From Eledone cirrhosa (lineage: Eukaryota), in assembly GCA_964016885.1 (NCBI GenBank), contig OZ024742.1, forward strand, positions 114,328,001-114,392,000: a stretch of DNA of 64,000 nt, written 5' to 3'. Shown in pieces: positions 5,119 through 62,965 of the stretch. Made by a program: the position numbers and the translations under genes. The notes below the pieces were generated by a model that made no database searches, was not told the origin of the DNA, and saw only the letters and a list, made by a program, of their open reading frames with translations. Positions within the stretch are counted from its first letter, which is position 1. Each line of letters opens with the position of its first letter.

Positions 5119-5334
5119 TGGTTGGTGAAGCCACGCTTCTTATCGCCTCCAGTCTTTTTCAACGTTTTACCTCTTTTTCAACCGTTCTAAACCTGTTATT
5201 CAAGTTTTAAATTTGATAAAAGTTTAGAAGAAGTGACCCACCTAATAGAGGGGTTGACTAGTAAATAATACGGCACCCCTTTACGGGGTGTCGTATTCGT
5301 ATTTGTGTAAAAATATATTTTGAAAAATGTCAAC

Positions 5335-7364: not shown

Positions 7365-7396
7365 CCCTTTCTCATTTGCCCCGTATCTCATCCAAC

Positions 7397-9837
7397 ATGG
7401 CTGTACTCAGAATAGGAAGTATAAATGCACGTGGCCTGGGGTCATCTTGGAAGCAGGGTCACCTGCTCAATGACCTCAGGTCACTAAACATAGATGTGGT
7501 GGCCATCAGTGAAACCAGAATCTCCGAGGCACTGGCCTTCGCACCGATCTTCGGCGGCTACGATGTATACGCATCTCCCAGCCGTCCAGGATCGCGGCGT
7601 GGGGTTGCCGTCCTTTTTCGGAGAGGCTTGGATCTCGCGATACGGGCCATCTTCCTACACCCAGAAGGTAAGTCGGTGGTGCTGGACGTGACCGGCAGCG
7701 AAGGCAATGCTTTCAGGCTAGTAGCCGTCTACGCCACAACAGGGGCAGGACGGCCAGATTTCTTCAGACGTCTAGAGACCTTTCTTGGAACGTCCCGCTC
7801 TTTAGTGTTAGTGGGCGACTGGAACGGTATCTTGGATGCACGCTGGGATCGTGTGGGGCTAGAGGATAGGGGAGGACGGTGCAAGAGCCTCACCAACCTG
7901 CTCAGACGTTTTGATCTGTCTGACAGGTATCGACTGGATCACCCGAATGTGCCAATGTGGACATGGACAAACCGCATCGGGTCATCCAGATCGTATCTAG
8001 ATAGTGTATTCTGCATGGAACTAGATAAGGCTAGTATAAGTTGTCCACAATTTAAAATAGTCGACTACACAGACCACACATTTGTGATCTGTTAGATCGA
8101 TATAGACAGACTTCATAGACAAGGGGCTGGTTACCGGAAGCTGAAGGCGTCTTTCCCGGCGTGCAAGGCCTACAGAGACCGGATTAGCGTATTAGTTAAG
8201 CGGACGTTGACGGGAGCGGTCGTCAACAACAGGTGGTGGATCTCCCTGAAAAGAGCAATTAAAGTAGAGTCGATTAGGTTTAGCAAAGGAGTAGTGATAG
8301 AGGAAAATAGAGTAGAAGGAGAGCTAGTAAGAAAGCTAGAAGAGGCGTTTAGGACAGGCATCGCAACCGACGTGCTTGCGGCGAGATTGGCACTCGACCA
8401 ATTCTTCAACGCAAAACACGAAGGCTTCGTTGTCAGAGCTAGAGCGCGTGCTCTGAAACACGAGGGGACAAAAGCCGTCCAATGGGCCCGGGTGGCAGAG
8501 GCGCGACGTGGAAATAAAGCCACAATTCGGTCTTTGTCTGACCAAAACGGGTGCGTGATGCTCGAAATCGAGCGGATGTGTGAAGCTTTTCAGCAGCACT
8601 TTGCTGAACTGTTCGGGAGCGGCGGCGGCCCGGATCGGGATATGGACTTCAGTGCATACCTCGACGGACTGCCTCGGCTCTCGACGACCGCAGCACAGTG
8701 TTGCGAAAAGCCAATAACAGCCGGTGAAATACGGCAAGCGATTGCTAACTGCACAAGAAGTAAATCGCCAGGTTTAGATCGTCTGCCCTACGAGCTTTAT
8801 GCATTTATGCCAGACTTGTTCGGTGACCTCTTGGCAGACGTCTACTGCAACTGGCAGCAGAACGGGAGCATTCCCAGTTTTGTGAGCCGGGGAGCAGTGG
8901 GGCTGCTGAGAAAAGACCGAACAAGGGGGATGTTATTGATAATTCCAGGCCCATAACTCTGCTAAACGCAGAGTTCAAGATTTTGGCCAAGGTGTTAGCA
9001 ACGAGGTTGGCGCTTGTCGTTAAGGGTCTGGTGGGAGAGGCGCAGACATGCACCATCCCGGACAGATCCATACACGGCAACCTCCACCTCATGCGATACA
9101 TCGTAGAAAGGGTGGTTAAGGAACCTGGCAAGGGTGGGGCCCTCATCAACTTGGATCAATCCAAACATTCGATAGGGTCGACCATCGGGACCTGGTGGCG
9201 GCCCATTTTCAGGCGTTGGATCGCAGCAATGTACAGCGACATCTGCTCAGCTGTGAGGGTGAACGGTCACCTGTCGCCGCCGTTCAGCACCATGCGCTCA
9301 CTCCACCAGGGTTGACCCCTCTCGTCCCTCTTGTACGTATTGGCTCTCGAGCCGTTACTGCACAAACTGGGAGCGATGGGGGGCGTCCCACGCGAACTAG
9401 GATGCGGGTAATCCGAGTCGGCTTACGCTGACGACGTCACCGTGGTGGTGTCGAGCACCAGACACGCCCAGATGCTCGGCACCGCTCTCGAGGAATACGA
9501 AACGGTGACAGAAGCAAAGATAAACTAGAAAAAGTCGGTGGGCTTGCAGCTAGGCACCTGGAGAGGCAATTCCATGCCGTCCGACAGCGTCGTGGGGTGT
9601 TCGACGGACGGACCGGTTAAATTGCTCGGGGTCTAGTTCGAACCGGAAGTCCATATGGAGAAAAACTGGAACGAGGTGATGAGCAGGGTGGCCTCCCTCG
9701 CACAGAAATGGGCTGAGAGGAAGCTGTTCCTGAAAGGCCAGGCAGAAGTGGCGAATGCGTACATCGCATCCGTCTCAGCTACCGCCTCACCGTCGTCCCT
9801 TGCTCCAGCCCAACTCTCACCAAAATGGAGCGCCTCC

Positions 9838-16039: not shown

Positions 16040-19000
16040 ATGAATATTCGAACAATTCCAAAATGGAACAAATACCTCAGAGACAGAAAGTTCTCATTCT
16101 GGAAGATGATACAAAATCACAACAAAGCGGAGATATATGAAAAATGGCTTAACTCAACCCCTCTATCTCTCCACCGCAACATACAAATAAAGTCCATTCT
16201 AAATGAACCCGAACCTCAAAGACACGTTAGGGAAAGTATGGCATTGGAGAAAATGAAGACAGACATTGAACTTCTTAAATTGAGGGCCCAGACAAATGAG
16301 GAAAAAATCAAAACCATCGATGAATAGATCCTCCTCGAAATCAACAATAAAACTGAAGGCCCCAAGGTAGAGAAGATCTCTAAATTATGGAAAGGGGACT
16401 GCATCAGAGAAGAACTGAAATCCCTTCAACGCTGGGAAAAAAGTGCTGCTTGGTTCCTACACTATGAATCGACTTTTCAAACGGATTACACCTCCAATAA
16501 CCCGTTCATAAAAATAGGAAAACCCATAACCGAACCGCACAACAACTTCGCAAATCCCCCAGCCAATAACAAAAGCAGAAGGAAGCACCACACCGAAGAT
16601 GAACTTCCCAACCTCGCTACCATAAGAAGGAACAAAAACCCTAGAAATCATCTCCCCAAGAATGTCATTTACAACTTTCCCCCTTCATGGAGAGACCATA
16701 CTAAATCACTCAACTACTACGCGGATGCCTCATCGTCAGACATAGGGATAAGATACCACCACCATGATAGATGTAACAACTTTCCCTCAAGGGGACAGCA
16801 AAGTAGTTTCCATTTTCTCAACTCTCGCTTCCACAATACACAACAAACCCACACCACACGATACATCCAACAACGTAGGCCACCTATAACACCACAATCC
16901 AACATGGCACATATAAACACACATGCATACTCGCAATACAGGAACACCCCATTCAATCTACAACCACGAACCCGAAACTCATTTTACAACAAAAAGGAAT
17001 ATAACAAACGCAGGAGATCACTTAACACCATCAGACAACCCCTCTACCCCAACCATGTTTTAGACACAGCAAACAGATACAGGCAAACAAAATAACACAA
17101 GACAGGGAGGAGAAAACGGGAGTAATAAAAAGTATCAATCTAACTAGTGCAGAATCAACACCCAACCTTATCAACTTACTCTCCAAAGCTCTTAAATTCA
17201 CACCGACCCCTCTTCGTCCTAACTACTATGAAATGAAGGAAGACATCACAGACTTCTTTAGAAAGTTACGACTCAGTGAAGAACTATTCGACCAGTATAA
17301 TGAGGATGAATCATTAGCCACAAATAGAAGCAATTTCACCCCATCAAAAGGTAGAAATAAAATCCTGGACGAATTCTGTGAACACATCACAAACTTCCCT
17401 TACCAACACTTGCATAGACAAAAACACAAGCCAAATTTCAACAAGAAAGAATGGGAAGAATTAAATAGATTAAAAACCAACAGAACCATTACAATTAAAG
17501 AGGCTGATAAAGGGATTACAGTAGTCCTAATGGAGACATAATTCTATCTCAATTTAGCGCTCTCCACTTTGGAAAACGAAACACTCTACGAAAAGAATGA
17601 ACACTACAATCAACAGAAAAGTATGAGAAACCTAAAAACTCTGATCAACCAATACAAAGAAGGACTCACTAACAAGGAATTCAGCTTCATCATAGACTTC
17701 ACAAGTAAATCCTGCCTTTGCTACGGTATCCCTAAAGTACATAAAAGCGAATTAATAAGTAAGGCATGCAAGGAAGCCACAGACATAGTCATCAATGTCC
17801 CCTCACCTAATGATCACAAATTAAGACCTTTAATAGCAGGCCCCGCTTGCAAAACCCACCGCCTTAGCAACTTCATTGATACCCTTCTCAAGCCTTTTCT
17901 CAAACACATCAAAATCTATATAAGGGACGACCTAGATATGCTCAATCACCTCCCTAATATGCCCCTTTCTGAACAAACCATACTAGTGACGTTCGATGTA
18001 GTCAACCTATACTCCAACATCCCCCACCACCTAGGAATAGAAGCTATCCAATTCTGGCTGGATAATTACCACAATGAACTCCCACAACGCATCAAAAATG
18101 AATTCGTGATAGAGGGACTCACATTTATCTTGGAGAACAATTACTTCGTTTTCAATAACAAACCCTACAGACAGAAATCTGGGACCGCAATGGGAACGAA
18201 AACAGCCCCCACTTATGCCAACATGGAAACCTGGAAATCACCCTCTACACTAAAGTACTAAACACATTTGCAAACACTCTCCACTTACACATAGAAATGA
18301 ACTGGAAGCGATATCTAGATGACTGCTTCATCCTTTGGCACGAAAACATCAAGAAACTTAAAGAATTTCACACCCTTATAAATGGGCTCAACAGGAATAT
18401 TAACTTCACGATGGAATACAGCCATCAACAACTCCCCTTCTTCGATATGCTCATTAAGATCCATAAAAAAAATAGAAACAGATATATACTACAAGCCCAT
18501 AGACTCCAAGCAATATCTTCCTTTCAACTCTTGCCACACTAGACACGTTAAAATTAATATTCCCTACAACTTAGCCAAGAGAATCTGTACTATAGTCTCC
18601 AATAAAAACACCTGCTACTTACTGCTACAAGAACTAAAGGACACACTCATAGGCAGGGACTACCCTGCATCACTAATTAACAATGGAATCCAACGTGCCC
18701 TAAAACTCAGTGCCCAGGAACTTAGACACCCTAAAGTAAATCAACCGAAACTAAAAGCTCTTCCATACGTCTCCACACACAAGCTCCCCAACAATAAGGC
18801 TTTTGACACCATCCTCCAGAACATCCCTGTGTTGAAAAAGGACCATAGAATGAACCAAATCATACGAACACACGATATCAGAAAAAGACAATCTAAGTCA
18901 ATGAAAAGCATCCTAACACATACCAAAGTACTGCCAACCACAACAACGAAACCCACAGTAAAAAAATGCGATAGACCCAACTGTGGCATATGCATCAACC

Positions 19001-19365
19001 TAATAGAGGGTTCGGAATTATATTTCAAAGAATGACAACGTTTTATAGTAAAACACAATTTCACATGTGCATCAGAAAATCTAATATATGTATTAACTTG
19101 CTCAGGTTGTCGAGAACAATACATAAGCCAGACCAAAAACAGCCTTCGCCAACGAATGACTGTCCATAGATCCCAAATAAAAATACGGGAATACAGGAAA
19201 ATACCACTGAGTGAACACCTTGATACCTGTGCCGCCCAAAATCATCCCAACTTCAGAATCTTTCCTCTCTACAAATTTACAGATAATGCCACCAACACCC
19301 AGCGCATCAGCAAGGAATCTCACGTTATTAACAAATACGGACCACGTCTAAACACTTCTCCCTAA
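16040..19365 (+). pseudogene. PLE RT plus GIY-YIG endonuclease ORF, frameshifted
   Basis: IKEADKG, YGIPKVHK, LRPLIAG, FDVVNLYSNI, GTAMG..APTYAN, RYLDDCF, CDRPNCGIC linker, NLIYVLTCSGCREQYISQT..LRQR. Confidence 0.92.
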
Positions 19366-30830: not shown

Positions 30831-31093
30831 ACAATATTCTGACGTGAATAGGTTATATTAAATGCGTATATACCATCAACAATTATTACTTTTGTAATGA
30901 AGACAATCATGTAATGGAAGATACGTAAGAAAAAACATTTTCTTTATACACATCTGTTTGTTAAATATTAATTAACGAAGATGTTTCAAATATTTACGAT
31001 GTTCACTAGCTTAAAAATTAAATGCATATATAACAATATATAACAATATATATTATATATATATATATATATTATATATATATATATATATAT

Positions 31094-31150
<57 letters not shown>

Positions 31151-31152
<2 letters not shown>

Positions 31153-32551
31153 AACGAGTAGGACCCCGACGGCTGAGCTCAAGCCGTTTCGACGGCTAAT
31201 TCTGGACTAAATGAAAATGTTTATTCTGGTAAATGACTAGCCGAGCTTCTCAGAGGGTAATTCCATATATGGTAAAAGTGATTGTAACAAGGATTGGTCA
31301 ACAGTTTGTTGTTGAGACACATAATTCTATCATGGAAATTTGTGGGGGGAAGGGTTAGCTGAAACTGCCAGTAGAAGAAAGAGGGAGAGAGGGTGGAGGA
31401 AATCCAGTCGTGCGTTGATAGTGCCAACTACAGCTGGGCAGGAGGTCAAGGAAGTATACTAGAGTGAGAGAGGGGGAGGAAGTCGAAACAATAAGTAAAA
31501 CAGTATGGGGTAAATATATAGAAAAATACCGAGAATGTTAAAAAAAAATTAATTATAAAAAAACAATTTCTGGTTACTATAACCTAAGGACAGCTATCAA
31601 GTCTCTCACTGGTACTGCCAGATTAAAGAAAGGTTTACTAGGTGGGACGGAATTATAATGAAACCCTTTTAAGAGGTATTAGTAATCAACTGAGTATATC
31701 TTACGGTGACGGGTCAACAATTTTTCGTGTCAAATTTTTCATATACTTCGTACGAGCATTTGTGTAGTTTTCACTAGAATTTTTGTATCGTAGCGGCACC
31801 CTTAGAGCCATTATTAGTATTCTTTTTCGAGCTTCTGAATTATTATTTCGTATTAGTTTATTTTTTTTGCACTGGGTGGTTGCTGGCCTTGTGCCTGGGG
31901 TAGAAACCTTTATTTCGTATTAGTCTCGGGACTCTGAATTATTATTTCGTGGTAGTTTCTTTAGTATTTTGGCCCCCCACTTGTTGACCCGTCACCGTTA
32001 GATATACTCGGTTGATTACTACTACCTCTTAAAAGGGTCTCATTATAATTCCGTCCCACCTAGTAAACCTTTCTTTAGTCTAGCAGTACCAGTGCGAGAC
32101 TTGATAGCTCTCCTTAGGTTATAGTAACCAGAAATTTTTTTTTTTATAATTATTTATTTTTTTAACATTCTCGTATTTTTCTATATATTTACCCCATATT
32201 GTTTTACTTATTGTTCCGACTGACTCCCACTCTCCCTCCCTAGTATACTTCCTTGACCTCCTGCCCAGCTGTAGTTGGTACTATCAACGCACGACTGGGT
32301 TTCCTCCACCCCCTCTCCCTCTTTGTTCTACTGGCAGGTTCAGCTGCCCCTTACCTCCACAAATTGCCATGATAGAATTATGTGTCTCAACAACAAACTT
32401 TTGACCAATCCTTGTGACAATCACTTTTACCATATATGGAATTACCCCCTGAGAAGCTCGGCTATTCATATACCAGGATAAAAATGTTCATTTAGTCCAG
32501 AATTAGCCGTCGAAACGGCTTGAGCTCAGGCGGCGGTGTCCTACTCGTTCC
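31151..32551. mobile_element. Non-coding foldback element with arms of about 570 bp and hammerhead-like termini
   Basis: 31151-31720 is the reverse complement of 31981-32551; 260-bp spacer; TA-rich flanks. Confidence 0.9.
31163..31258 (-). ncRNA. Hammerhead-like motif with long stem II (mirror copy 32444-32539, +)
   Basis: ACCCT-CTGAGAA-gctCGGCTA...TAGCCGtc-GAA-ACGGCT tgagctc AGCCGT-C-GGGGT; position 8 is A instead of G. Confidence 0.6.
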
Positions 32552-33067
32552 TATTATATATATGTGTATAGTAAAAAAGAGAAAGGAAAACAGTAGATAA
32601 TGCTAGAGGGACTTTTTTCAGAATAACATCAACACATCTATTTACAAAATAGGGATTCCCGCGATTAATTGTTACAGTTATCAGCTGTGTATGCTCTTTC
32701 AACGACGGAAGTGTATAGTGCAGTTAAATTGCATATTAATTAGAATAATAAGGAAATGGAGAAACACATTTTTAGTTGGTACATATATATTTAAGGAGGA
32801 AAGATCATAAAATTCTCCGTAGTTTCCTTTCGTTCTCTGTTATATATATATATTGTAAATAGCTAATGACCGTTGGCTGAGTCATGTTCTTTCGATGGTG
32901 AGAAGATAACTGGATAAGTCATAACACCGTCGAAATTGTGTACATTCATCCATCTGTCAGTAAATATTTACAATTCATACACGTATTGAGTACTTAGTTG
33001 AACATGGTATCAATAGTCTAAACCGGTAACACCTAATCTACACACATACACACAGACACACACACAC

Positions 33068-33236: not shown

Positions 33237-33450
33237 ACACTTATCCATGCCGCATATGCTATCAGATTCTGTAAATCTTAAGGAGTTCGAAACGAGTATT
33301 TCAAAGTTCGGTATATTCAGATAACAGAGTCTTTGCAAGCTGTATTAAAACTATAGTATAATTCATCTGAATATACCGAACTTTGAAATACCCGTTTCGA
33401 ACTCCTTAAGATTTACAGAATCGGATAGCATATGCGGCATGGATAAGTGT
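33237..33450. repeat. MITE-like inverted repeat with 86-bp arms and a 42-bp spacer
   Basis: 33237-33322 versus 33365-33450, two mismatches. Confidence 0.9.
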
Positions 33451-39737: not shown

Positions 39738-39784
39738 TGCCGACAGCCGTTTCGTCCGACCCTATGGTGGGACTTTTCAAGGCA
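39738..39784 (-). ncRNA. Hammerhead ribozyme (U3-A8) in the inverted pLTR
   Basis: Reverse-complement copy of 42087-42133. Confidence 0.8.
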
Positions 39785-42086
39785 TATAACATGTGATTTT
39801 AAGATAAGTATTTACATCAACGTATCACTCAAGGCTAGCAGTTTGAAATTGTGGTATACATCAGCAGCTCCGCTTGTATAGTTGGGGTCTATATTCTAAG
39901 GGGGCTCTTTTATATTAGTTGTCGGGGTCAGGGATTGAAGGTTAAAAATTAGATAATATATAATTTACGCATTAACAGTAAACTAAAAGTCTTGGGGGTC
40001 TCGTTGAAGCTCCTTAACAAATCCCTCAATAAGTGCATAAAGCTTACAGGCTCCAATAAACCTACTAAACTAGAAGAAATTAAGAGGCTAATAAAATAAA
40101 AAATAAATATATAAAGTTTCCCTAAAATAATATATAAAGTTTCCTCTGAAATTCCTTCGAGAGAAAACATTTTTTTTCCGAAAGTAAAAAACTTTCTGCC
40201 CCCGAGATCACGTTTACAAATTTCAGAAAACTTACGAAGTTTTGATATTCTCTACTAAGTTGAAAGAAACTAATCAATTAAAGGTTAATTCAAAGAGCCT
40301 TCTATAATTCTCTCAGAAAAGGCCCCTTTAATATTTTTAATAGGAACTTCCTCCGAGAGACCCTTCGAAGAATTAACATTTTAGAGAGCCTTTAAGGATA
40401 TATATAAAAACGAATTGAGGAAAATTATACATTAAAAGTTAAAAATTACGGTATTTGGGATATGCGAGGAATTTTCAAAGGGCTGCTTCAACAGATACAA
40501 CTTAGGCATAATAGATACAATAATTTAAGTAATTTAAGTAATTTAATTAGGGAGCAATTCAAAGAGTTTATCAAGTTGGGTAAGATTAAAGAAAGTGGTA
40601 AATAAGAAAATACATAAGCAAAAAGACAATAATTATAAAATGTATTTTTAAGAAGGTATAAGGTAGCTTCAGTAATCTAACAATGTATAATCACAAAAAA
40701 TTATTATAAAATTATTGATACAGGATTAACAAAGACATAATAATATATTCCTGCCTAAATAACAAGTAATCAAAACACTATTAACAGTCAGGCAAAATTA
40801 GCTCAGGGATATCCCGCGCTCGGATACTTTACACACATACAGCAACACATAGGATTAGCACAGACATAATGGTATATTCCTGCCTAATTAACAAACAATC
40901 GATTAACAATTGATGGTCAAGAAAATGTACTCAGGGATATCCCGCGCACGGATATTTACATACATACAACAGGATGAACAGTACTGGTGACCGTGTGGGC
41001 GCGATATCCATTATGCGTATGTAGTCATCTGCATAGCTCCAGCCACAGCTGGTCTTGTTTAAAAGTTCATAGTTCACGGATCAACTGGGATTCACTATCA
41101 GCTGCGTGGACTCTCTGGGAGATGTACCTGTGGATCTAATAGCTAGTGGTTGCTGGGTGTGGTCCGTTCGATCTTTTAGTTTCAGGGGTTGCACGCTTTT
41201 GCGATAGACCAGCCTGCCGGTTCTAAGTCCAAGGTCTCGCTACATAGGATGTATTGGTCTACATGCTATATTGGTAAAAAAAACCAGTGTGGATTTGACT
41301 GGGGTGGTATATTACGAACTCCAAGCCCACACGCGACTGGTCAAAAGCGAAGAGCTGTCCCCTCTTTGTTTGCTGTATGGGTCGGTTCCAGCTTAGATGG
41401 TGGTCGTGTTATCCATATTCCGTCAGCCCTGTATATTCAAGACAGATCAGGGTATATATTTGCGGGTATGGTCCGGCGTCTACGTTATCCAGAGGGTCTC
41501 ACTTGTGGTATTTTCAAGTTCGCATGTCATCTCCCGGTTAAGACTGCGCATGCTTCGGTTAATCTCATGCATGGAATCTTAGGGTATCATATTACACGGG
41601 GTGACTAGCAGAAAATATATATTCAATGCTATCGCGCACCCGCTGGTCTGTGGCTACGACCGTGATCTCGGGGGAAGAAAGTTTTTTTCTTTCGGAAAAA
41701 AAAAATTTACTCTCGAAGGAATTTCATAGGAAACTTTATATATTTTTTTAGGGAAACTTTATGTTTTTATTTTTTATTTTATTAGCCTCTTAATTTCTTC
41801 TAGTTTAGTAGGTTTATTGGAGCCTGAAGCCTTATGCACTTATTGAGGGATTTTTTAAGGTGCTTCTACGGGACCCCAAGTCTTTTAGTTTACTGTTAAT
41901 GCGTAAATTATATATTATCTAATTTTTAACCTTCAATCCCTGACCCCGACAACTAATATAAAAGAGCCCCCTTAGAATATAGACCCCAACTATACAAGCG
42001 GAGCTGCTGATATATACCACAATTTCAAACTGCTAGCCTTGAGTAATACGTTGATGTAAATAATGATCTTACAATCACATGTTATA

Positions 42087-42133
42087 TGCCTTGAAAAGTC
42101 CCACCATATGGTCGGACGAAACGGCTGTCGGCA
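42087..42133 (+). ncRNA. Hammerhead ribozyme (U3-A8)
   Basis: TGCC-TTGAAAA-GTCC(cACCatatGGTc)GGAC-GAA-ACGGCTGT-C-GGCA; GUC cleavage triplet. Confidence 0.82.
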
Positions 42134-42343
42134 ATAAACCTGTTATAATGTCATGATAGTTCCTTTGTTCTTTTTCACTAATATTTCTGCTCTGCGTATA
42201 CGCATAGAGCTTAACTAGCTACCGTCACATATTTGGTAGTTCAGACGTGATCATCGCGATTCACATACGACCTACCATACATCTTACTTATTTAGCTCCC
42301 TCCGGTAGAGCTTAACCTTCACTGAAAAACACACGGCCCTGGG

Positions 42344-44918
42344 GTGGCTTTTCAATACACTGACAGTATGCTGACAAAGGACCATCTTCCGTTATCACTT
42401 AAGAATATACCCATACCACCAAGGGGTACTTATGAAAAGCAGCTTATAACCAGCGTTAACTCGTTTGTAAGGAGAATAAGATGGCGCACATTTCACTTCG
42501 ATAGGCGCCGTAGCGCCCCACTAGAGAGTCCATCGAATAATAAGTATGGATTTAGGATATTTAGGAGCCCACCCCATAACCCTCTACTCGATAAATTTGA
42601 GAGTGACCTATTATCTCTCGTCCGGTCTATTAGATATAAAAGGAAAAACGGTAAGCGTAGCGGCTTCCAAACAAAGTTAGAATCACTAGTTAAATCTTTT
42701 AAGGACATAAAGTGTATACTCGTACCCCCGGACAAGACTAGGAATATGTACAACCTGAGTTATGAAGAATACCGCGGTTTCATATACAATGAGCTACATA
42801 AAAACCTATAAAAAAAACCACTGTAGCCAACCTAGATGAGATTAACAGAGAGGCTTAAGTGATAGTAACGAAGCTAGGATTAGAGAAATGCACACAACCT
42901 TATACCCCCCGACAACCAAGGTTCACATTGAAAGATCATAAGGAGGACTTTGCAAGTAGCCCCTCTGTCAGGCTCATTAGCCCCTCTAAATCTTACATAG
43001 GGATTATAAGTAAAAAAAATACTAGATGAAGTCATACCGAAAGTTAAAGACAGGATTAGCCTGGAGCTATGGGGAAACACTGCAGAAGTGATAAAGTAGT
43101 TCTCAAGCATTAGCAACCACAAATCACTACGCTTCATCCAGTTCGATATAGACTCCTACTATACGTCTATATCCCCCATAATACTAAATAAGGCGCTCAT
43201 GATGGCAATGCGGACGGGCGGACTCGCTAGATCCCAGATTGACATAGTCCTTGCCGCTCGTAAAATAATTATCACATTTGAGGATGAATTGTGGACGCGC
43301 AAGAACACTCGTAACAATTTCGACATCACTATGGGGTCTAGCGACTCAGCGCAGGTGACAGACCTCGTCGGATTGTGATTGCTCAAGGAGCTCAGCGAGC
43401 AGCTCCCACACCTCAGAGGTGGGCTATACCGTTCCGACGCATTGCTTACTGTGGACTTTAAACGGCACAACCTAGAATGAACTAGAAAGGACCTTTATAA
43501 ATTCTTCAAGAATGTTAACCTATCAATAAATATGGATAGAAAGAGTAAGGTAGTCAACTTTCTAGATGCCACACTAGACCTAGATAAGTTAGAATATGCA
43601 CCGTACCATAAACCTAACGAAAGGCTGACATACGTCAATGCCAGCTCCAACCACCCAGGCTCAGTCCTCAAAGCAATAGTTAAAGGAGTATCTAGTAGGA
43701 TTAGCGGACTATCTAGCAACGTGACCGCATTTGAAGCGAACGCGGAATATTACAATAAGGCGCTAGCTGGGTCAGGGCACAAGGATAAACTCCATTATGT
43801 TAAGACAGGCGGCACCACCCTGCCACCCCAGCCCAGCACTGTAATCACGCATAATATGTCCATGGGAGTTGGAAGAAGAGCTAGAAAGACGAATAGGGAC
43901 AATAGGAAGTTAGATAAGAACAACAACACTCGCAACGCAGACACGGATAGGGCCCACACGCCTGGTAAGCGCTATGCCGCCCCGAGCAAGTCCAACAGTG
44001 AAAACGGGGGACAGAGGCCTAGGAGACTCGAGACCAACGCACATACCACTGGGAGCCCAGCAACCACACCTGGTAGAACCCGTAATAATATAGACGAAGA
44101 GAGGGTAAGCAGCTTAGGGGATAGGAAACGCAGTGGAAGGAATGTTACTACAGACCTCCCCAAATCTTTTTTCTCTTTAATAGATAAGAACTTCCCCCCC
44201 GGGTAGTAGGTACGGTAGTGTCATCAATAAGAATACTATCAAGCTATCGTACTCTACAACCCCTAATCTGGCCTCACACCTAGATAAGACCAATAAGAGT
44301 AAGATTAAAGAGGGACTTAAGGCCATCCGAAATAGTGAACCACGCCAGTACACACGACAACACGGGACCAACCCACTGAGTGAAAGACCCAGGGGGATAA
44401 TAGGCAATAGAACCGGTCCCACTAGGCAGCCCCGCGGCTGCTTGGAGGGACATGCACCCCTGATTGAGGAGCATGACCCTACTAAAAAGTGTAATTGCAG
44501 AAGGAAGGACAAATGCCCACTAGCTGGACACTGCCTTATTAGGAACGTGGTATATGCTTGTAACGTAACCACAGGCACGTATACTAAGACGTATGTGGGA
44601 TCAACCGCTAACGAGTTCAAGACGAGGTTCAACGCCCACCAGCATAGCTTCCGATATGAGAAGCTTAAAAATACCACGTCGTTAGCGGGGCATATACATA
44701 ACTTAAAACAAACAAAAAACCCTTACACACTAAGCTGGAGATGCCTTACTAAAGCTCCTCCATATAGCTCGTTGAGCAGGTTTTGTAGCCTGTGCCTATC
44801 TGAATCTCATGCAATAGTATTCTCAGGACTCAACTTGCTCAACAGGAGTACAGAAATCTTCTCGTCCTGCCCCCATAATATACTTAGCTCTTTCTTTTTC
44901 TTCAGACCAGACACATAG
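42344..44918 (+). pseudogene. Naiad-type PLE RT plus GIY-YIG ORF, frameshifted
   Basis: SLKNIPIP, LVPPDKTRNMY, TLKDHK, FIQFDIDSYY, FDITMGSSDSA, VNFLDATLDL, SNHP; CNCRRKDKCPLAGHCL..VVY..YVGST..FKTRF..H..SF, CSLCLSE, LNRSTE..CPH. Confidence 0.9.
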
Positions 44919-47407
44919 CCCTGACACCACCCAGTCCTGCACTTGGCAGCCCCGCTGGCGAACAGGGTGCTCTTTAGTAACCCCGGCCGCATGGATGCCT
45001 CGGCTCCCCGATTGGCGATGGGGACTCTGGTGAGGAACAGACGACCCTGTGTCCCACTTGCCAACCTGGGATTGGTGGCAACATTGTTGCTGGGCACCAT
45101 GGGGGCAGCTGATGCCTGCGATGTAGGACATTGTGAATGCCTGGACCCACGTTGACTAATCTGGGAAGGTGCCGTCGGAGATGTATGTCAACAAACTCGA
45201 GAACATGCCCAGGGAAACAGTAACAAAACACCCAATATGGCGGCCGCTCCCTGCCTATAACCACTCACCCCCACCCCCTCCCTTAGTAAACCTCCGCCCA
45301 TATAGATGCCCCTCCCCATTCTCCCCCACTCACATCTTTTGAGTTAGTTCTTTATTATCAGTGATTAGGTCTTTACTAATAGGAATTTTTTGTATTTTAC
45401 CACAGTCGACTTAATGGGCTTGGAGAGTTGACTCCCTTGAAGTCTGACCACTCGATAAGTTAGGGGTTGTGCCCCTTGAACAGGGGTGTGTCTAGCTGGT
45501 CTACCTGCTGTCTGCTGCTACCCGAGACTGGACACGGTCGTAGCCACAGGCCAGCGCGTGCGGGATATCATTGAATATATATGTTCTGCTAGTCACCCCG
45601 TGTAATATGATACCCTAAGATTCCATGCATGAGATTCACCGAAGCATGCGCAGTCTTAACTGGGAGATGACATGCGAACTTGAAAATACCACAAGTGAGA
45701 CCCTCTGGATAACGTAGACGCCGGACCATACCCGCAAATATATACCCTGATCTGTCTTGAATATACAGGGCTGACGGAATATGGATAACACGACAACCAT
45801 CTAAGCTGGAACCGACCCATACAGCAAACAAAGAGGGGACAGCCCTTCGCTTTTGACCAGTCGCGTGTCGGCTTGGAGTTCGTAATATACCACCCCAGTC
45901 AAATCCACACTGGTTTTTTTACCAATATAGCATGTAGACCAATACATCCTATGTAGCGAGACCTTCGACTTAGAACCGGCAGGCTGGTCTATCGCGAAAG
46001 CGTGCAACCCCTGAAACTAAAAGATCGAACCGACCACACCAAGCAACCACTAGCTATTAGATCCACAGGTACATCTCCCAGAGAGTCCACGCAGCTGATA
46101 GTGAATCCCAGTTAGCCGTGAACTATGAACTTTTAAACAAGACCAGCTGTGGCTGGAGCTATGCAGATGACTACATACGCATAATGGATATCGCGCCCAC
46201 ACGGTCACCAGTACTGTTCATCCTGCTGTATGTATGTAAATATCCGTGCGCGGGATATCCCTGAGTACATTTTCTTGACCATCAATTGTTAATCGACTGT
46301 TTGTTAATTAGGCAGGAATATACCATTATGTCTGTGCTAATCCTATGTGTTGCTGTATGTGTGTAAAGTATCCGAGCGCGGGACATCCCTGAGCTAATTT
46401 TGCCTGACTGTTAATAGTGTTTTGATTACTTGTTAATTAGGCAGGAATATATTATTATGTCTTTGTTAATCCTATATCAATAATTTATAATAATTTTTTG
46501 TGATAATACATTGTTAGATTACTGAAGCTACCTTATACCTTCTTAAAAATACATTTCATAATTGTTGTCTTTTTGCTTATGTATTTTCTTATTTACCATT
46601 TTCTTTAATCTTACCCAACTTGATAAACTCTTTGAATTGCTCTCTAATTAAATTACTTAAATTACTTAAATTATTGTATCTATTATGCCTAAGTTGTATC
46701 TGTTGAAGCAGCCCTTTGAAAATTCCTCGCATATCCCAAATACCGTAATTTTTAACTTTTAATGTATAATTTTCCTCAATTCGTTTTTATATATATCCTT
46801 AAAGGCTCTCTAAAATGTTAATTCTTCGAAGGGTCTCTCGGGGGAAGTTCCTATTAAAAATATTAAAGGGGCCTTTTCTGAGGGAATTATAGAAGGCTCT
46901 TTGAATTAACCTTTAATTGATTAGTTTCTTTCAACTTAGTAGAGAATATCAAAACTTCGTAAGTTTTCTGAAATGTGTAAACGTGATCTCGGGGGCAGAA
47001 AGTTTTTTTCTTTCGGAAAAAATTTGTTTACTCTCGAAGGTATTTCATAGGAAACTTTATATATTTGTTTAGGGAAACTTTATATTTTTATTTTTTTATT
47101 TTATTAGCCTCTTAATTTCTTCTAGTTTAGTAGGTTTATTGGAATGTAAGCTTTATACACTTATTAAGGGATTTTTTAAGATGCTTCTACGGGACCCTAA
47201 GTCTTTTAGTTTACTGTTAATGCGTAAATTATATATTATCTAATTTTTAACCTTCAATCCCTGACCCCGACAACTAATATAAAAGAGCCCCCTTAGAATA
47301 TAGACCCCAACTATACAAGCAGAGCTGCTGATGTATACCACAATTTCAAACTGCTAGCCTTGAGTGAAACGTTGATGTAAATACTTATCTTGCAATCACA
47401 TGTTATA

Positions 47408-47454
47408 TGCCTTGAAAAGTCCCACCACATGGTCGGACGAAACGGCTGTCGGCA
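47408..47454 (+). ncRNA. Hammerhead ribozyme (U3-A8) in the 3' pLTR
   Basis: Same core and stems as 42087-42133. Confidence 0.82.
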
Positions 47455-47498
47455 ATAAACTTGTTATAATGTCATAATAGTTCCTTTGTTATTTTTCA

Positions 47499-47597
<99 letters not shown>

Positions 47598-47723: not shown

Positions 47724-50700
47724 TGTTTTATTTATTAACCACAAGGGTTTACATACAGTAGACATTAAGGACAGTATAGGACAATACAGGACGGTACAAA
47801 TGGGCATTTCTGCGTGTAAAAAAACAGAGGATGTAATAAAAAATAACAATGAAAATTTCCCCAATAGGAGGGTGACTTCCGAGGGACATTTGTGGGGAAA
47901 GCCCATTAAAAGACCACAGTGACCCTGACTACCAGAGCAAGTGCTCACTAAAAGTTTTCCACCTTTTATTTAGAGACACATACTCAGAGTAGGCCCATTC
48001 ACTCGGGCCATACTTGCTTCTCTCATCTTTCAACAAAATGCTGGGAAGAGAGCACTTCCCTCTCTACCCTGATTTTCCTTTTCAAATGAAATTTGAAAAA
48101 GTTAATCAGGGCATCACTGAAGAGGTAAGTGCTCGTCATCAGCCCTTTCAAACGGGTCCACCATAATATCACTTTCGCCATGGCCACCAGACAGATAAAT
48201 ACTGCCTGCCCTTCCCGGCTGAAGGAAGTGGGCGGAGCAATCCTCACGATGGATTCAGCTGATTGCTGGATCCGCCCTACACATGACAGCAGCTGTTTTA
48301 CATAAACCCACAAGCCAGCGATTGCACGGACACTGGACGAGTGCGTGCAGGACGGTTTTGTCGCCCTGCGCGCATCTCGGACATGCCCAGCTGACGGCAC
48401 CTCCATGCCTGTAGAGTTTATCCCGAACTGGCAAAGCTCCCGGTAGCACTGCCAGGCCAGGGATTTCTGGAAGTTGTCCATAGGCCCCGGTCCGAAAGTC
48501 CTTCCGAAGAGATTGGCTAGTTGATTTTCGTCGACGCCTAGATTTTCTCCAAGTACGTGGTCGCTCTTACCCCCGACTAATCCTCTATAGAACGCCAAGG
48601 TGGAGTTTCCACAGATAACATTTCCCGATTGGTCGAGGGCTGTGAGCACCTGAAGACATTGCAGTCTCCAAGCGCTCCATCTCGGTCTTCGCTTGACCCA
48701 GACTTCAGCTCCGTCAAGGAGACTACCTGGGGAAAGACGTGTGTAGCAAACGGCGACCACTCCTGATCACCGTCGTGGAAGAGGTGGAGATGTCGTAGCC
48801 TGAGCACGTGTCTGCGCACCATCAGACACGGCATGCCCAGCCCTCCAAGTAGCGGGTGTTGACAGGAGATGAACCGCCTGACCATCGGAGCGCGTCCCTT
48901 CCACAAAAAGCGAAAGAGCAAACGCTCCAGCGCAGTCAGGGGGGGGGGTAGGACAAGGTACGACGGTCAGGCGGTAGTAGATGACGGACGCGATGTACGC
49001 GTTAGCCAACTCCGCTCGACTTTTCAGGGATAGCTTCCTCTCGGCCCATTTCTGGGTGAGAGCAGCCACCCTGCTCGTCATCTCGTCCCATTTTTTGTCC
49101 TTCGGGAGGTCCGGACCGAACCAACACCTAGCAATTTAATCGGTCCGTCCGTCCAGCGCCTCACGACGCTGTTAGACGGCATGGACCTGCCTCTCCAGGT
49201 GCCGAGTTGCAGTCCCACTGACTTTTCCTGGTTGATCATTGCTCTTATCACCGCTTCGTATTCTCTTAGTGTAGTGCTGTCGCCTCGATGTGTTTGGCGT
49301 TCGACACCACTACGGTGACATCGTCCGCATACGTTGACACGGATTTTCCACATCCTAGTTCGCGCAGGATCCCCCTCAACGTCTCCAGTTTGTGCAGTAA
49401 TGGCTCGAGAGTCAATACGTACAAGAGGGACGAGAGGGGACATCTTTGGCGGACCGAGCGCATGATGTTGAACGGTTCCGAAAGGTGACCATTCACTCTC
49501 ACCACAGAGCACATGTAGCTGTGCATGGCAGCGATCCAGCCTCTGAAGACGGGCCCAAAGCCAGCCGCCCTCAGGACTGCCGCTAGGTAAGGATGGTCAA
49601 CCCTTTCGAAAGCTTTCGACTGATCGAAACTGATCAAGCACCCAACCGTCCAGGTTCCCTAGCTACCCTCTCTACGATGTATCGCATGAGGTGGAGGTTG
49701 TCGTTGATGGATCTGTCGGAAATGGCGCATGTCTGCGCCTCTCCCACCAGATCACCAACGATAAGCGCCAACCTCTTTGCTAGCACCTTGGTCAACATCT
49801 TGAACTCTGTGTTTAGCAGAGTTATGGGCCTAAAATGATCTATATTATCCCCCTTGTTCGGATCCTTTCTCAGCAGCGCCACCGCTCCTCGGCTCACAGA
49901 GCTTGGAATTCTCCCGTTCTGTTGCCAGTTGCAGTAGACGTCCGCCAGGAGGCTTCAGAACAAGTCTGGCATTTGTACGTAAAGTTCATAGGGCACACCA
50001 TCCAAACCAGGCGATTTACCCCTTGTGCAACTAGTCATTGCATCCCGTACTTCAGCGGCTGTTATCGGCTTTTCGCAACACTCCGCCTCAGTGGCCGAGA
50101 GCCGCGGCAGTCCGCCCAGGTAGACTCTAAAGTCCATCCCTCGATCCGGCCCGCCACTGCCCCCGAACAGTTGAGCGAAGTGTCGCTGAAAAGCTTCACA
50201 CATTTGCCCGGGCTCGAGAAGCATGCGCCCGTCGTGGTCCACCAAAGACTCGATCGTGAATTTGTTGCCACGACGCGCCTCCGCCACTTGGGCCCATTGA
50301 AGGGCTTTCGTCCCCTCGTGTCTGAGAGCACGCACCCTAGCTCTGATAACGCAGCCTTCGTGCTTTGCATTGAAGAATTGCTCAAGGGCCAAATTCGCCG
50401 CAAGTACGTCGGTCGCGATGCCTTTGCTAAGTGCCTCGTCTAATTTTCTAACTAATTCTCCCTCTGCTCTATTTTTCTCTATTGCTAAAGTCTTACTAAA
50501 CCTAATGGACTCTATTCTAATTGCTCTTTTCAGAGCAAACCACCACATATTGTTGACATGGCCCCCGTTAACGCCCGCTTAACTAGTTCGCTAATCCGGT
50601 CTCTGTATGCCTTGCGCGCTGGTAAGGACGCGTTTAGCTTCCAGTAGCCGGGTGCTCGTCTATAAAGCCGATCTAAGTCAAGCACACAGATCACGAATTT

Positions 50701-52530
50701 ATGGTCCGTGTAGCTGACTATCTTGAATTGTGGACAGGTTATGCTACAAAATACTCTATCTAGATATGATCTGGATGACCTTCAAAACGCCTGAACAGGT
50801 TGGTGAGACTCTTGCACCCTCCCCGCCTATCTACTAATCCCACACAGTCACAGCGTGCATCTAATATCCCGTTCCAGTCGCCCACTAACACTAATGTGCG
50901 GGACGTTCCAAGAAAGGTCTCCAGACGCCGGAAGAAATCAGGCCGCCCTGCTCCAGTCGGGGCATAGACGGCTGCTAGCCTGAAAGCTTGCCCGTCTCCG
51001 CAGGTCTCGTCCAGCACCACCAACTTACCTTCTGGGTCCAGGAAGATGGCCCGTATGGCAAGATCCAAAGCACAGCAACTTCGCCCCCCGATCCCGGAGG
51101 GCTGGGAGATGCGTACACATCTTAGCCGCCGAAGATTGGTGCGATGGCCACTCATTCTTTGTTTAGTGACCTGAGGTCGTTGAGCAGGTGGCCCTGTTTC
51201 CATGACGACCCCAAGCCACGCGCATTTATGCTGTCTTTTCTGAGTGAGGTCATGTTGAAATGGAGTGGAAAAGATTTGAAAGTCCACTTACCCTACTTCT
51301 CGTAGAGGAAGGACGGTTTCTCCATCCTTTTCACTGCTTGTGGCCTGCTCAGGAAGGATGTCCTTATAAATCCTCCTGGAGAGTGCTTGTCGGAAGTCTC
51401 CGATGTCTTTGGGGAATTTTTGTTTTAGTGTCATGTACGTTTTCTGTGTGATGCGAGTGATTTGTATGTGTGGAGGCGGTGTGAACTTTTGGGTTGTTGT
51501 GTAGTCATTTTCTGTGATGCTGGTGTTGTGTTGGATGTAGTGTAATCATTGGTTGTTCAAATTTAATGCTTTGTAGTGTGTATCGTTTTGGTTGTTTTGT
51601 TTTGTTTGTGTTTGTTGTGGGTTTGTTTGTTTCGCTTTTTGGTGACTTTTGTGGTGTAGGTGATGGTGGTATTGGGGTTAATGATGGTGATGGGGTTTGT
51701 GTTTGGGGTGATGGGGTAGGCGATGCTGGTGTGGATGGTGGCATATCTGCCCTAACTTTTTTGTTTGATAGTTTATTTTGTTCCCACTGTATTTTGTTTT
51801 TGGAAGGTGAAGGAAGAGAATTTTTTCTTTTTTGGTTTCTTTTTTTCTTTTTTCCTGATACCGTTTCCCACTCCTCGTCGTCACAATCTGTCTCCAGTTG
51901 TGATAGGCCGGGGAGTGGAAAATCCTCCACGTGCGTTAGTTTTGGTTGTGGCGTTGTGGATGGTGTAGGTGCTGGTGCTAGTTCTGAAGCGTTGGGTGGT
52001 GGTGGTGTTGGTGTTGCTACTGTTGCTGGGGTTGTTGCTTTTATAGTTGCTTCTCTTGTTGCTGCTACAGTTGTTGCTGCCATCTCTGCTGCTGGTGGTG
52101 TTGATGGTTGAGTCACTGGGGTGGGTAGGAGAGTTGGCCACAACCTTTAAGCCTGATCGCAGAAAGCCCTTCGGTGGGTTCCTTCACCACAAACGACACA
52201 CCTGGGCCTACTGCCTAGTGTTGGCAAACGTAGTAACATTTACAATGGTGGTGTCGGTGTCAGGTGTTAGTTTGTGAGAAAGTCGCTCAGTTTCTTGTTG
52301 CAGAGGTGAATCAGCCATGATTTTTTTCAAAGAAATTTGTTGATAATCATAAAAGTTTAAATTTTGGGCACAAGGCCCCAATCTTTTTGGGTGTTCTTTT
52401 CGGAAAACAGTGTATGTGCGCTTATATACATTTAACAATAAACATTTTCCATAAATGACAATTGTTTAACAAACGAAAACAACAAACCTTTGCAGAGCTC
52501 ACGATGATACGATTTACTACGTAGGTCGCC
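47724..52530 (-). mobile_element. Tx1 LINE, decayed, ORF1 internally deleted
   Basis: ORF2 from 51253: VGDWN, KSPGLDG, FRPITLLN, FDQSKAF, YADD, CPRC..HALVQC; (ATT)n at both ends. Confidence 0.9.
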
Positions 52531-55500
52531 AATAATAATAATAATAATAATGATTTCATTTATTGGCCACAGGGGCCGACATATAGGGGACAATACAAAA
52601 GACTGTGACAGAAAAATCGAGTAAACAATACAAATAACAATACAAAGGTAACAATAAAAATATGAGAATCCTCCAATAGGGGGGGGGGGGGGTTCACCCA
52701 GGTTTTGCTCAGGTACCCCACCAATACTGAACAACCCGACATTCGAGAGCAGCCGGGAAGGGCACCCCTCTCCTCCTCAAATATATCCACCTACAGGCGC
52801 ATGATCAGATTAGGCCAACTCACACGGGCCATCTCTCCACAATCACCCACCTTTCAGCACATGTACTGGGGGGCAGCACTTCTCTCTCCACACTCACCTT
52901 CCTTTCCTAGTGAAACTTGAAAGAGTTTATGAGGGATTGGCCGAAGAGAAAAGTGTCTTTCGTTAGTCCTTTCAACCTCTTCCACCAAACAACCTCTTTC
53001 GCTACTGCCACCAGACAGAGGACAATTTCCTGCCCTTCCTGGCCAAACAGAAGGCGGCGGGTCGATCTTCACTATGGATTCGGCCGATAGCCGGATCCGT
53101 TCTACACGCGACAACAGCTGTTCGACATAACTCAACAAGTCAGTAATTCACGGACAAGGACGAGTGCGTGGAGAACAGTTTCGTCGCTCTGCGCGCATCT
53201 CGGGCAGGTCAGTTTGACAGCACTTCCGTGCCTGTAGAGTTTATCTCGAACCGGCAGTGCCCGCCGATAGCACTGCCAGGCGATGGATTTTTGGAAATTA
53301 TCCATCGTCCCCGGCTCGAAAGTCCTCCGGAATAGACTGGTTAGTTCGACTTCGTCGACGCCCAGATTCCCTTCGAGTGCGTCGCGGCACATGCCCACAA
53401 CTAATCCTCTCTAGAACTGGATAGTGGAAGTTCCACTGACAGCATTGCCCGCGTGGTATAGGGCAGTGAGTGCTTGGCAACATTCCAGATGCCAATCACC
53501 CAGTATCGGTCCAGACGTGACCAAGGACTGCAGCTCAGTCAAAGGCACGAGCTGCGGAAAGGCCCGTCTGACCAACGGCGACCACACCCGTTCACCGTTT
53601 AGGCAGAATATCTGGAGATGCAGCAGCCTCAGTGCGTGTCTTCGCATCATTAGCCACGGCATGCCAGTCCCTCCACGTAAAGGGTGCTGGCAGCAGATGC
53701 ACCACCTCACCAACGGAACCTGACCCTTCGACAAGGATTTGAAGAGGAGCCACCCCAATATGGCGAGCCACGAATGGGGGCAAGGAACGACGGTCAGACG
53801 GTAGTAGATGATGGACGCGATTTACGCGTTTCCCACCTCCGCCCGACCTTTCAGTGATAGCTTCCTCGCAGGCCATTTCTGGGTGAGACTGGCTAACAAG
53901 CTCGTCACATCGTCCCAATTCTTATCCACCTGGAGGTCTGGCCCGAACCAAACCCCGAGCAACTTTACCAATCGGTCCGTCCAGTGCCCAATGGTGCTGT
54001 TGGACTGCATGGACTTGCTTCTCTAGTGCCGAGTTTAAGCCCAGCGATTTTTCCTGGTTAAGTTTTGCTCCCGTCAACCTTTAATAGTCCTCCAATAAGT
54101 TGCGGACGACCTTGTTTTCTGTGGTGTCCGACACCATCACGGTTTGTTGTCCGCATAAGCCGACACAGCCTTTCCGCGACTCGGTTCTAACGTGATGCCC
54201 TGTAGCAGCTCCAGATTCCGCAGTAAAGGCTCGAGAGTCAATACGTACAGGAAGGAGATCTGAAACAATTCCGAGAGGTGGCCATTATTCTTTGACCACC
54301 GAGCAGATGCCTTTCTGCATTGCAGCGATACAGCTTCTGAAGAGGGAGCCGACGCCAGCCACCTTGAGGACAGCCTCCAGGTACCGATGGTCGACCCTAT
54401 CGAATGCTTTTGATTGACCATTTTGATCACAACCCCACCCAAGCCAGGTTTACACCCTACCCTCTCTATGATGTATCGCATCAGGTGGAGGTTGTGTTGT
54501 ATGGACTTGGTTTGGATTGTGCAGTTTAGCGCCTCCCGAAACAAATCCCCGACGACAATCGCCAACCTCTTCCCTAACACCTTGGCCAAAATCTTAAACA
54601 CTGTGTTGAACAGAGAATATGGGCCTGAAATTTTCTAATGTGTCCCTCTTCTTCTCGTTTTTCCTCATCAGCATCACTACGCCCCCGAATCACAGAAGTG
54701 GGAATACTCCCGCTCTACTGCCAGTTGCAGTAGAACACTTCGAGGAGATCGGAGAACATGTCTGGCATATATACATAAACATGTAGGGCAGACCATCCAA
54801 ACTGAGTGACTTGCGCGTCATGCAGCCAAAAAGGGCATCCTGAATCTCGGCTTAAATAATCGGCCTTTCGCAGCGCTCAGCATCAGCGTCCAGATTTGCG
54901 GCAAGCCATCGAGTTAGGGGCTGAAGTCCGCAACCTTCTCTGACCCACCACTTCCCCCGAACAACCGAGCAAAATGTTGGCGAAAGGCCTCACACAACCG
55001 CTTGGAATCGCTCAGCTCGTGTCCATCTTGATCCGTCAAAGACCAGATCGTGGTTATATTATCACGCTGCGCCTCTTCCACGCGGGCCCATCGAACAGCT
55101 TTGGTTCCTTCGTTTCTCAGAGTACGCGCCTTAGCACGTGAGTTGCAATGCCACTACAAATAGCCTTGTCAAACTTATCTACCCACCTCCCTTTCTATTT
55201 TTCTCTAACGCTACTTCTTTACTAAACTCTATCGATATTACTATGATCTGGTCCCTATAAGTCTTACGTGCCGGAATGACATGTTCAGCTTCCAGTAACC
55301 AGGTCACGCAGACTGCAATTGCATCCATTTCTAGAGACCTGAGTTCGTTGAGCCTGTGACCCTGCTTCCAGGACGATCCCTGACCTCGAATATTTAAACT
55401 TCCTACTCTTAATACGGCCATGTTGGCAGGCTAAAAGAGAGAGAGGAAAGGTTTACTTACCTTTCGTGGTCTCGTGAGGGTCGGGTGGTTCGATCTCCAT

Positions 55501-62732: not shown

Positions 62733-62842
62733 GGAACGAGTAGGACCCCAACGGCTGAGCTCAAGCCGTTTCGGCGGCTAATTCTGAGTCCAGAATTAGC
62801 CGTCGAAACGGTTTGAGCTCAGCCGTCGGGGTCCTACTCGTT
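62733..62842. repeat. 110-bp palindrome made of the two termini of the 31151-32551 foldback
   Basis: ggaacgagtaggacccc..ggctaattctg-agtc-cagaattagccg..ggggtcctactcgtt. Confidence 0.9.

Positions 62843-62922: not shown

Positions 62923-62965
<43 letters not shown>

What the first reader, a model, noticed from the sequence alone, without database searches (positions are those of the whole stretch)
31151..32551. Foldback element whose two termini are outward-facing hammerheads with extended stem II and stem III
Seen: inverted arms of about 570 bp, each ending in stem I/CTGAGAA/long stem II/GAA/6-bp stem III/C/stem I. The left copy is better paired and the right stem III is damaged. Transcription in either direction would give a long dsRNA hairpin trimmed at its 3' end. 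It resembles a MITE, but the ends are ribozymes rather than transposase TIRs. Inference: an ORF-less PLE inverted-pLTR product and a possible endo-siRNA or ADAR substrate. The C3/A8 core is non-canonical in both arms.
Basis: partly seen in the sequence, partly recalled or inferred. Interest (0 to 1): 0.72.

Follow-up and report, generated by a model that had tools for sequence, protein, structure and literature searches.

The report
Penelope foldback scrap with mismatched hammerheads
This hairpin-shaped insert is two cut-short copies of the tail end of a very common Penelope-type jumping gene set head to head, a known by-product; the more useful result is that other copies carry scars exactly at the predicted ribozyme cut site, which likely record cutting and re-joining of the RNA in cells, probably even in the lineage whose ribozyme core is mismatched.

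Summary
Observation confirmed: 570-bp arms, 92.7% alike, each ending in an outward-facing hammerhead-like motif with a C3/A8 core; right stem III is broken. It is not a MITE or a self-spreading foldback: the junction occurs once in the genome, and both arms are 3'-UTR/pLTR pieces of an autonomous Hydra-clade Penelope-like element (3,531-bp tandem units, 717-aa RT + GIY-YIG ORF) in (TA)n. Inverted 5' copies and U3-A8 cores are published. Family-wide the core is U3-A8 (4,019 exact matches), C3/A8 (1,452) or C3-G8 (6); the tree indicates U3 to C3 and back to U3. Scars at the predicted cut site (15 A/T-rich inserts, 2 U6 fusions, a pile-up of arm ends) point to cleavage and re-ligation in vivo; 2 of 14 readable inserts follow a C3/A8 core. 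In this copy both motifs are predicted to be masked by the long hairpin; there is no A-to-G bias. The scan already noted this family in this genome, and U6 fusions and A-rich scars in other genomes. Cleavage was not assayed.

The parts
31030..31150 (.). (TA)n target tract, left; start approximate
   Evidence: 30 of 30 loci end in (TA)n directly or after all or part of the tail
31151..31720 (-). Inverted, 5'-truncated copy of the last 570 bp of the element's 3' UTR/pLTR
31163..31258 (-). Type I hammerhead-like motif, left: C3/A8 core 31253-31247, C17 at 31168, predicted cut between 31168 and 31167; stems intact, one U-G in stem I
31719..31720 (.). Two-base (AA) overlap at the inversion junction; junction found once in the genome
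31719..32551 (+). Sense, 5'-truncated 833-bp copy of the 3' UTR/pLTR (31721-31980 forms the hairpin loop); no ORF sequence
32444..32539 (+). Hammerhead-like motif, right: C3/A8 core 32449-32455, C17 at 32534; changes at 32530, 32533, 32537 break stems III and I
32552..32563 (.). Short right TA tract; its first five bases also equal the start of the element's 80-nt tail (ambiguous)

Best explanation
The insert is two 5'-truncated copies (570 and 833 bp) of the non-coding 3' end of a Hydra-clade Penelope-like retrotransposon joined head to head in a TA repeat, likely made in one event in which both sides of the DNA break primed reverse transcription on element RNA that had probably been cut by its hammerhead and re-joined. 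Shown: homology to the autonomous element, its ORF and motifs, the unique junction, variable arm lengths across the family, scars at the predicted cut site. Inferred: the GIY-YIG domain nicks (TA)n; priming occurs at a TA 17 nt (or about 97 nt, giving the tail) downstream of the cut site; the RT then crosses the cut site into the 3' UTR, which on a cleaved RNA needs a re-ligated (circular or multimeric) template or a template jump; the two cDNAs join by a 2-base overlap. This copy is probably inert: in a transcript of either strand the complementary arm is made first and would pair with the ribozyme strand. Confidence about 0.95 for identity, 0.75 for cutting in vivo, 0.55 for a ligated circle, 0.6 that C3/A8 RNAs were themselves cut.
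For: Same 3' region follows a 717-aa ORF in tandem 3,531-bp units. ORF has RWR, DKT, YRDD, CxCX5C, GIY-YIG-like, CxxC and CxH motifs shared with 18 homologues, matching the Hydra definition; model pLDDT 87, top fold hit telomerase RT, E 3.7e-8. Outward pairs in 19 of 77 and 27 of 69 sampled loci, inward in 0 and 2. Structure: 91% of cells paired, 3 stem II pairs changed on both sides, position 7 takes all four bases while position 8 stays A in 98 of 100 listed. Cut-site scars: 15 A/T-rich untemplated inserts among 28 insertions against 0 of 10 at a control site, Fisher p 0.003; one insert sits in both arms (L317); U6 joined exactly at the site in 2 insertions; 17 of 98 short arms (14 insertions) stop exactly there against 2.9 per other position.
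Against: No cleavage assay. No Rfam hammerhead hit; z-scores near zero. All three double changes lie between the oldest subfamily and the rest, so they are not independent events, and 432 of 500 shuffles reach that count of pairs. Scars are rare: 15 against 13,334 uninterrupted tail-bearing ends. Only one control site worked. The G4 run at the site offers microhomology that can inflate arm-end counts. Pfam finds no family in the ORF, and no solved structure matches by sequence. No target-site duplication can be read inside (TA)n.
Confidence: 0.85

Rival explanations
1. Same origin, but the C3/A8 ribozyme was dead and the lineage spread without self-cleavage, from uncut tandem transcripts or with help in trans, until C3 reverted to U.
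For: C3/A8 lacks the 3-8 Watson-Crick pair described as central (PMC3884650, PMC3088659 passages). The five C3 copies fold 3.5-7.5 kcal/mol away from the hammerhead, partly because CUGAG pairs with CUCAG, whereas the youngest copies have the hammerhead as their lowest-energy fold. Both U6 fusions have U3-type ends (assigned by haplotype). Naiads spread without canonical hammerheads.
Against: 2 of 14 readable cut-site inserts follow a C3/A8 core, against 3.7 expected (p 0.24). L242 and L266 have arms ending at or one base from the site in insertions with a C3 core; L283 joins an ORF piece closest to C3 copies (96.5% against 95.8% for the best U3 copy) to the site in both arms. L186 has C3 in both pLTRs around a whole, frameshifted ORF. 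Several mutated U3 copies fold as far away as C3 copies.
Confidence: 0.3
2. The site is an RNA end or RT jump point for another reason (nuclease, transcription start, G-run slippage); the motif is a relic and inserts are RT-added bases.
For: Weak folding signal; low in vitro activity of metazoan PLE hammerheads; the G4 run.
Against: The U6 3' end abuts the exact site twice; RtcB joining of U6 needs a 5'-OH partner (PMC6789731, abstract and section titles), which a hammerhead leaves and a capped start does not (established chemistry). The same insert in both arms of L317.
Confidence: 0.15
3. A non-autonomous foldback DNA transposon (MITE) with long terminal inverted repeats.
For: Long inverted arms, GG...CC ends, TA on both sides.
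Against: Junction found once; arm lengths vary freely; many loci have no partner arm; the sequence is the 3' UTR of an RT-coding element.
Confidence: 0.02
4. The hairpin is transcribed and works as an endo-siRNA or ADAR substrate that restrains the active family.
For: Predicted duplex of -978 kcal/mol; the ribozyme region is 93% identical to the youngest copies.
Against: No A-to-G excess in the DNA (right 4 of 37 changes, left 1 of 27), which speaks only to editing before insertion. 6.9% arm divergence is like neutral decay. The ORFs of 150 aa or more in the window that I could recognise by eye are transposon-like; short host exons were not excluded.
Confidence: 0.15

Closest known systems
Hydra clade of C-terminal EN+ Penelope-like elements, e.g. 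Hydra-1_Obim (Craig et al. 2021, PMC8557442; passages, section 11, supplement parts 2 and 7 and search hits read)
   Same: Single RT + C-terminal GIY-YIG ORF of about 710 aa; RW(K/R), DKT, CxCX5C, CxxC, CxH; (TA)n target; partial tandems, inverted 5'-truncated copy, tail at one end; 3' hammerhead. Motif order matches Hydra-1_Obim by eye.
   Different: 3.5-kb unit with a 1.2-kb 3' UTR (published: generally under 3 kb); tail about 80 nt (30-40 published for Naiads and figure 2); all 26 Hydra rows of File S2 have a C3-G8 core and loop II of 10 nt or less, here U3-A8 or C3/A8 with a loop II of over 30 nt and a 5-bp stem III.
PLE hammerheads of Cervera and de la Pena 2014 (PMC4209133; parts 1-2 of 4 read)
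   Same: Type I motif in pLTRs; U3-A8 variant (Schistosoma Cercyon); pairs on opposite strands 100-700 bp apart; palindromic loop III; proposed cleavage, ligation and circular template.
   Different: That paper states there was no in vivo evidence; here there are genomic scars at the site, and a C3/A8 phase that I did not find in the parts read.
U6/LINE-1 chimeras made by RtcB (Moldovan et al. 2019, PMC6789731; abstract and section list only)
   Same: U6 3' end joined to retroelement RNA and copied into DNA.
   Different: The junction is at one fixed base, the predicted ribozyme cut, not at variable points.
Metazoan non-LTR retrozymes (PMC7229834, passages; bioRxiv 10.64898/2026.07.22.740005, part 1 of 5)
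   Same: Non-coding, type I hammerhead, PLE-related; RtcB circularises cleaved monomers in vitro.
   Different: Retrozymes are direct tandem repeats of a fixed short monomer; this is a one-off inverted truncation product.

Membership tests
Hydra-clade PLE | Single ORF, RT with C-terminal GIY-YIG | tested here: met
   717 aa; fold closest to TERT; GIY-YIG weak in Pfam (E 0.043 on a fragment; 4 of 19 homologues)
Hydra-clade PLE | RWK-type motif, DKT, CxCX5C linker, CxxC and CxH around E and N | tested here: met
   (RWR in this family, R or K in homologues)
Hydra-clade PLE | Insertion in (TA)n; partial tandems; inverted 5' copy; tail at one end | tested here: met
Hydra-clade PLE | Canonical C3-G8 hammerhead in the pLTR | tested here: not met
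   6 of 5,477 exact matches; no other hammerhead in the unit by my descriptor. A variant core is present instead
Hydra-clade PLE | RT tree placement with published Hydra proteins | not tested
   compared by eye only
Type I hammerhead ribozyme | Stems I-III, G10.1-C11.1, GAA, A15.1-U16.1, H17, free position 7 | tested here: met
   family and left copy; not met in the right copy
Type I hammerhead ribozyme | Watson-Crick pair 3-8 | tested here: not met
   C3/A8 in both window copies; met (U3-A8) in older and younger subfamilies
Type I hammerhead ribozyme | Site-specific self-cleavage | not testable with these tools
   indirect scars only
MITE / foldback DNA transposon | Many copies of one fixed unit | tested here: not met
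   1 match to the junction with up to 1 mismatch
MITE / foldback DNA transposon | Fixed target-site duplication | tested here: inconclusive
   cannot be read in (TA)n
Non-LTR retrozyme | Direct tandem repeats of a short hammerhead monomer | tested here: not met
   single inverted pair

The most novel reading that the evidence does not exclude
An autonomous Penelope-like element replicates through a hammerhead-cut, host-ligated (RtcB-like) RNA circle, and its genomic copies record the cut, occasional tailing, re-ligation and capture of U6. Its master lineage lost the core 3-8 pair (U3 to C3), kept cutting enough to leave over 1,400 motif copies through at least four subfamily steps, then regained the pair and a better fold in the lineage that now dominates: a dated natural series showing how little ribozyme activity a retroelement needs.
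Probability: 0.4. Interest if true: 0.65.

Novelty: new variant of a known kind. Interest (0 to 1): 0.4.

Why it matters
The insert itself is ordinary and should be annotated as a Penelope remnant. The family matters because whether PLE hammerheads cut in cells, and whether PLEs copy from circles, is stated as open in the papers read. Here an element with intact ORFs in tandem arrays, a ladder of natural core variants and scars at one base make both questions testable with a few short constructs. It also shows that a broken 3-8 pair in a genomic hammerhead need not mean it never cut, and that C3-G8-only descriptors miss thousands of motifs in this genome.

Tried and rejected
Rfam scan of the window: no hammerhead. 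Search for RNA runs: no RNA holder listed; no reads were laid. ADAR scar in the arms: none. Pfam and PDB sequence searches of the ORF: nothing informative. First pair count used a mis-indexed structure and was discarded (redone); the right-arm fold was off by one base. First tree held rows that span inversion junctions; rebuilt after dropping 48 of 126 rows, 5 of which went back in as outgroup. A second control site for inserts failed because the pattern matched uninterrupted copies. My working idea that the C3/A8 ribozyme was simply dead was weakened. DNA-transposon readings of the GG...CC ends (Merlin, ISL2EU, Mutator; recalled) were dropped once the RT partner appeared. Kinetic papers on 3-8 mismatches and Lunse et al. 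2017 were not held (searches gave no data), so the size of the expected defect is recalled only. Sequence look-up in earlier findings gave nothing.

Full report
Observation. The sequence at 31151-32551 is as described. The arms are 31151-31720 and 31981-32551, 92.7% identical over 572 columns, between a long left and a short right TA tract. Each ends in an outward-facing hammerhead-shaped motif with core CTGAGAA. The right motif has lost two stem III pairs and one stem I pair, and the hammerhead fold lies 19.4 kcal/mol above its ensemble; the left lies 3.5 above. Rfam gives no hammerhead in the window and folding z-scores are near zero, so the motif's standing rests on the family.

What it is. 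The window lies in a 3.0-Gb animal genome, probably a cephalopod (inference). The end has 640 first-look candidates, 40 scored. All 30 loci fetched stop at the same base and run into (TA)n directly or after all or part of an 80-nt tail, and several carry inverted pieces with differing junctions. One locus has an ORF fragment upstream of the same sequence. That fragment gave 40,661 candidates, 150 scored, many with 784-codon open frames in arrays. One array has an inverted 5' piece followed by 3,531-bp units with a 717-aa ORF. The protein has RWR, DKT, YRDD, a CxCX5C linker, a C-terminal GIY-YIG-like domain, CxxC and CxH, shared with 18 of the 82 homologues that I aligned. These are the Hydra-clade features of Craig et al., and Hydra-1_Obim shows the same motif order by eye. 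The model (pLDDT 87) best matches telomerase RT. The window insert is 833 bp of the 3' UTR in sense plus 570 bp inverted, overlapping by two bases. Its junction occurs once. Among the first 100 listed matches of each core type, outward pairs occur in 19 of 77 and 27 of 69 loci, 83-5,146 bp apart, inward pairs in 0 and 2. The foldback is therefore a routine one-off product, as published for PLEs.

The ribozyme. Exact patterns give U3-A8 4,019, C3/A8 1,452 and C3-G8 6 (both arms count, and exact matching favours young copies). In older subfamilies (653 matches) the first 100 listed have U3 in 97 and A8 in 98, while position 7 takes all four bases (hand tally). On 20 chosen copies 91% of cells pair and three stem II pairs change on both sides, all between the oldest subfamily and the rest; slid controls pair 27-49%. 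U3-A8 is a known natural variant. All 26 Hydra rows in the published table have C3-G8 and short loops.

History of the core. With position 3 masked, 31 young U3 rows form a clade (100/99) nested in a ladder of C3 rows with six starred nodes; the window's two arms group together near the top of the ladder (83 rows; the outgroup is long and the root uncertain). An AU test rejects C3 as one clade (p 0.0001; 77 rows, L173 and the outgroup left out). Hand tallies of the first 100 listed matches agree: in the older group C3 is found in 76 of 79 copies with G7 and 2 of 20 with A7; in the younger group in 32 of 33, 4 of 25 and 1 of 42 across three successive haplotypes. C3 copies include a tandem with a whole but frameshifted ORF (L186), and two insertions (L185, L190) have C3 in one arm and U3 in the other. 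The youngest copies fold into the hammerhead as their lowest-energy state. The simplest reading is U3 to C3 to U3; recombination is not excluded, and the reversion may be neutral.

Did it cut? A neighbouring insertion that starts at window 62966 has a 16-nt A-rich insert exactly at the predicted cut, beyond the window's end, and an inverted piece that stops one base short of it. Genome-wide, a pattern for inserts at the site gave 29 matches in 28 insertions; 15 are A/T-rich and untemplated (at least 78% A/T and 5 nt; L319 left out as a duplication), one present in both arms. A control site in loop III gave 10 matches, all templated duplications (Fisher p 0.003). About 13,300 tail-bearing ends are uninterrupted, so scars are near 0.1%. 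U6 is joined exactly at the site in two insertions, one passing the Rfam threshold (52.3 bits against 44), the other as sub-threshold fragments in both arms; no control at other offsets was run. Of 98 arm ends recovered from the first 100 of 983 matches, 17 (14 insertions; one row re-binned by hand) stop at the site, 8 one base short, 20 at position 8 (14 are internal skips across a direct repeat), and 53 over 18 other positions (p 3e-6); the G run may inflate this. Of 14 inserts with a readable core, 12 are U3 and 2 are C3, against 3.7 expected (p 0.24). So C3/A8 RNAs were probably cut too, slowly or with help; the numbers are small.

Mechanism. Inferred: tandem transcripts are cut at each pLTR, perhaps aided by dimer formation through the palindromic loop III (model); ends are re-ligated by an RtcB-like enzyme, now and then after tailing or to U6; the endonuclease nicks (TA)n; priming just downstream of the cut forces the RT across the junction, which would explain why DNA ends lie 17 or about 97 nt past the cut and why more-than-unit arrays arise; priming from both sides gives the inverted pair. 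RT template jumps between cut ends are an alternative to ligation.

This copy. The whole insert folds at -978 kcal/mol with 534 of 570 left-arm bases paired to the right arm, which would mask either motif, so self-trimming is unlikely. Neither arm shows an A-to-G bias, and six changes shared by both arms point to one parent. Expression is unknown.

Novelty. Structure, clade and U3-A8 core are in print. I did not find cut-site scars or a C3/A8 phase of PLE hammerheads in searches, of which I saw mostly listings; Lunse et al. 2017 and the supplements of PMC4209133 were not seen and may hold such variants. The scan's own notes report this family in this genome and similar scars in other genomes; these are unchecked leads. 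Verdict: an ordinary insert in a family with a useful natural series; interest 0.4.

Noticed in passing
window 39740-47560 (ORF pieces 42326-44918; motifs at -39780, +42091, +47412): A second, broken Hydra-like PLE family with a minimal U3-A8 hammerhead in both pLTRs and in an inverted 5' copy, flanked by (TA)n.
   Followed up: partly
window 16328-19035, motifs at +20673 and +23475: Broken Penelope-like RT ORF followed by two canonical CTGATGA hammerhead-like motifs 2.8 kb apart; clade not determined.
   Followed up: no
window 62733-62925: Miniature head-to-head insertion of the same family as the finding, 54-bp arms plus tail.
   Followed up: partly
window 62966 onwards; L032 967-2398: Young-subfamily copy whose inverted piece ends one base short of the cut site and whose ribozyme carries a 16-nt A/G-rich insert at the site.
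   Followed up: yes
L240 50-265; L298 1516-1616: U6 snRNA pieces joined exactly at the predicted cut site in two subfamilies.
   Followed up: yes
L283 49-1021: An internal ORF position joined to the cut site in both arms, as expected of a shortened RNA circle.
   Followed up: partly
14 loci among L195-L290: Recurrent deletion between two copies of an 8-nt direct repeat in stems II and III, as if the RT skips an alternative hairpin.
   Followed up: no
L126 about 1200-1560: Tandem array of seven 53-bp units made of the 3' half of the oldest subfamily's ribozyme.
   Followed up: no
window 33237-33450: Separate 86-bp inverted repeat, 98% complementary, 42-nt loop; its miRNA-family matches are below threshold.
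   Followed up: no
window 1481-9315 and 48023-54634: Several broken non-LTR retrotransposon ORFs with endonuclease and RT motifs, recognised by eye.
   Followed up: no
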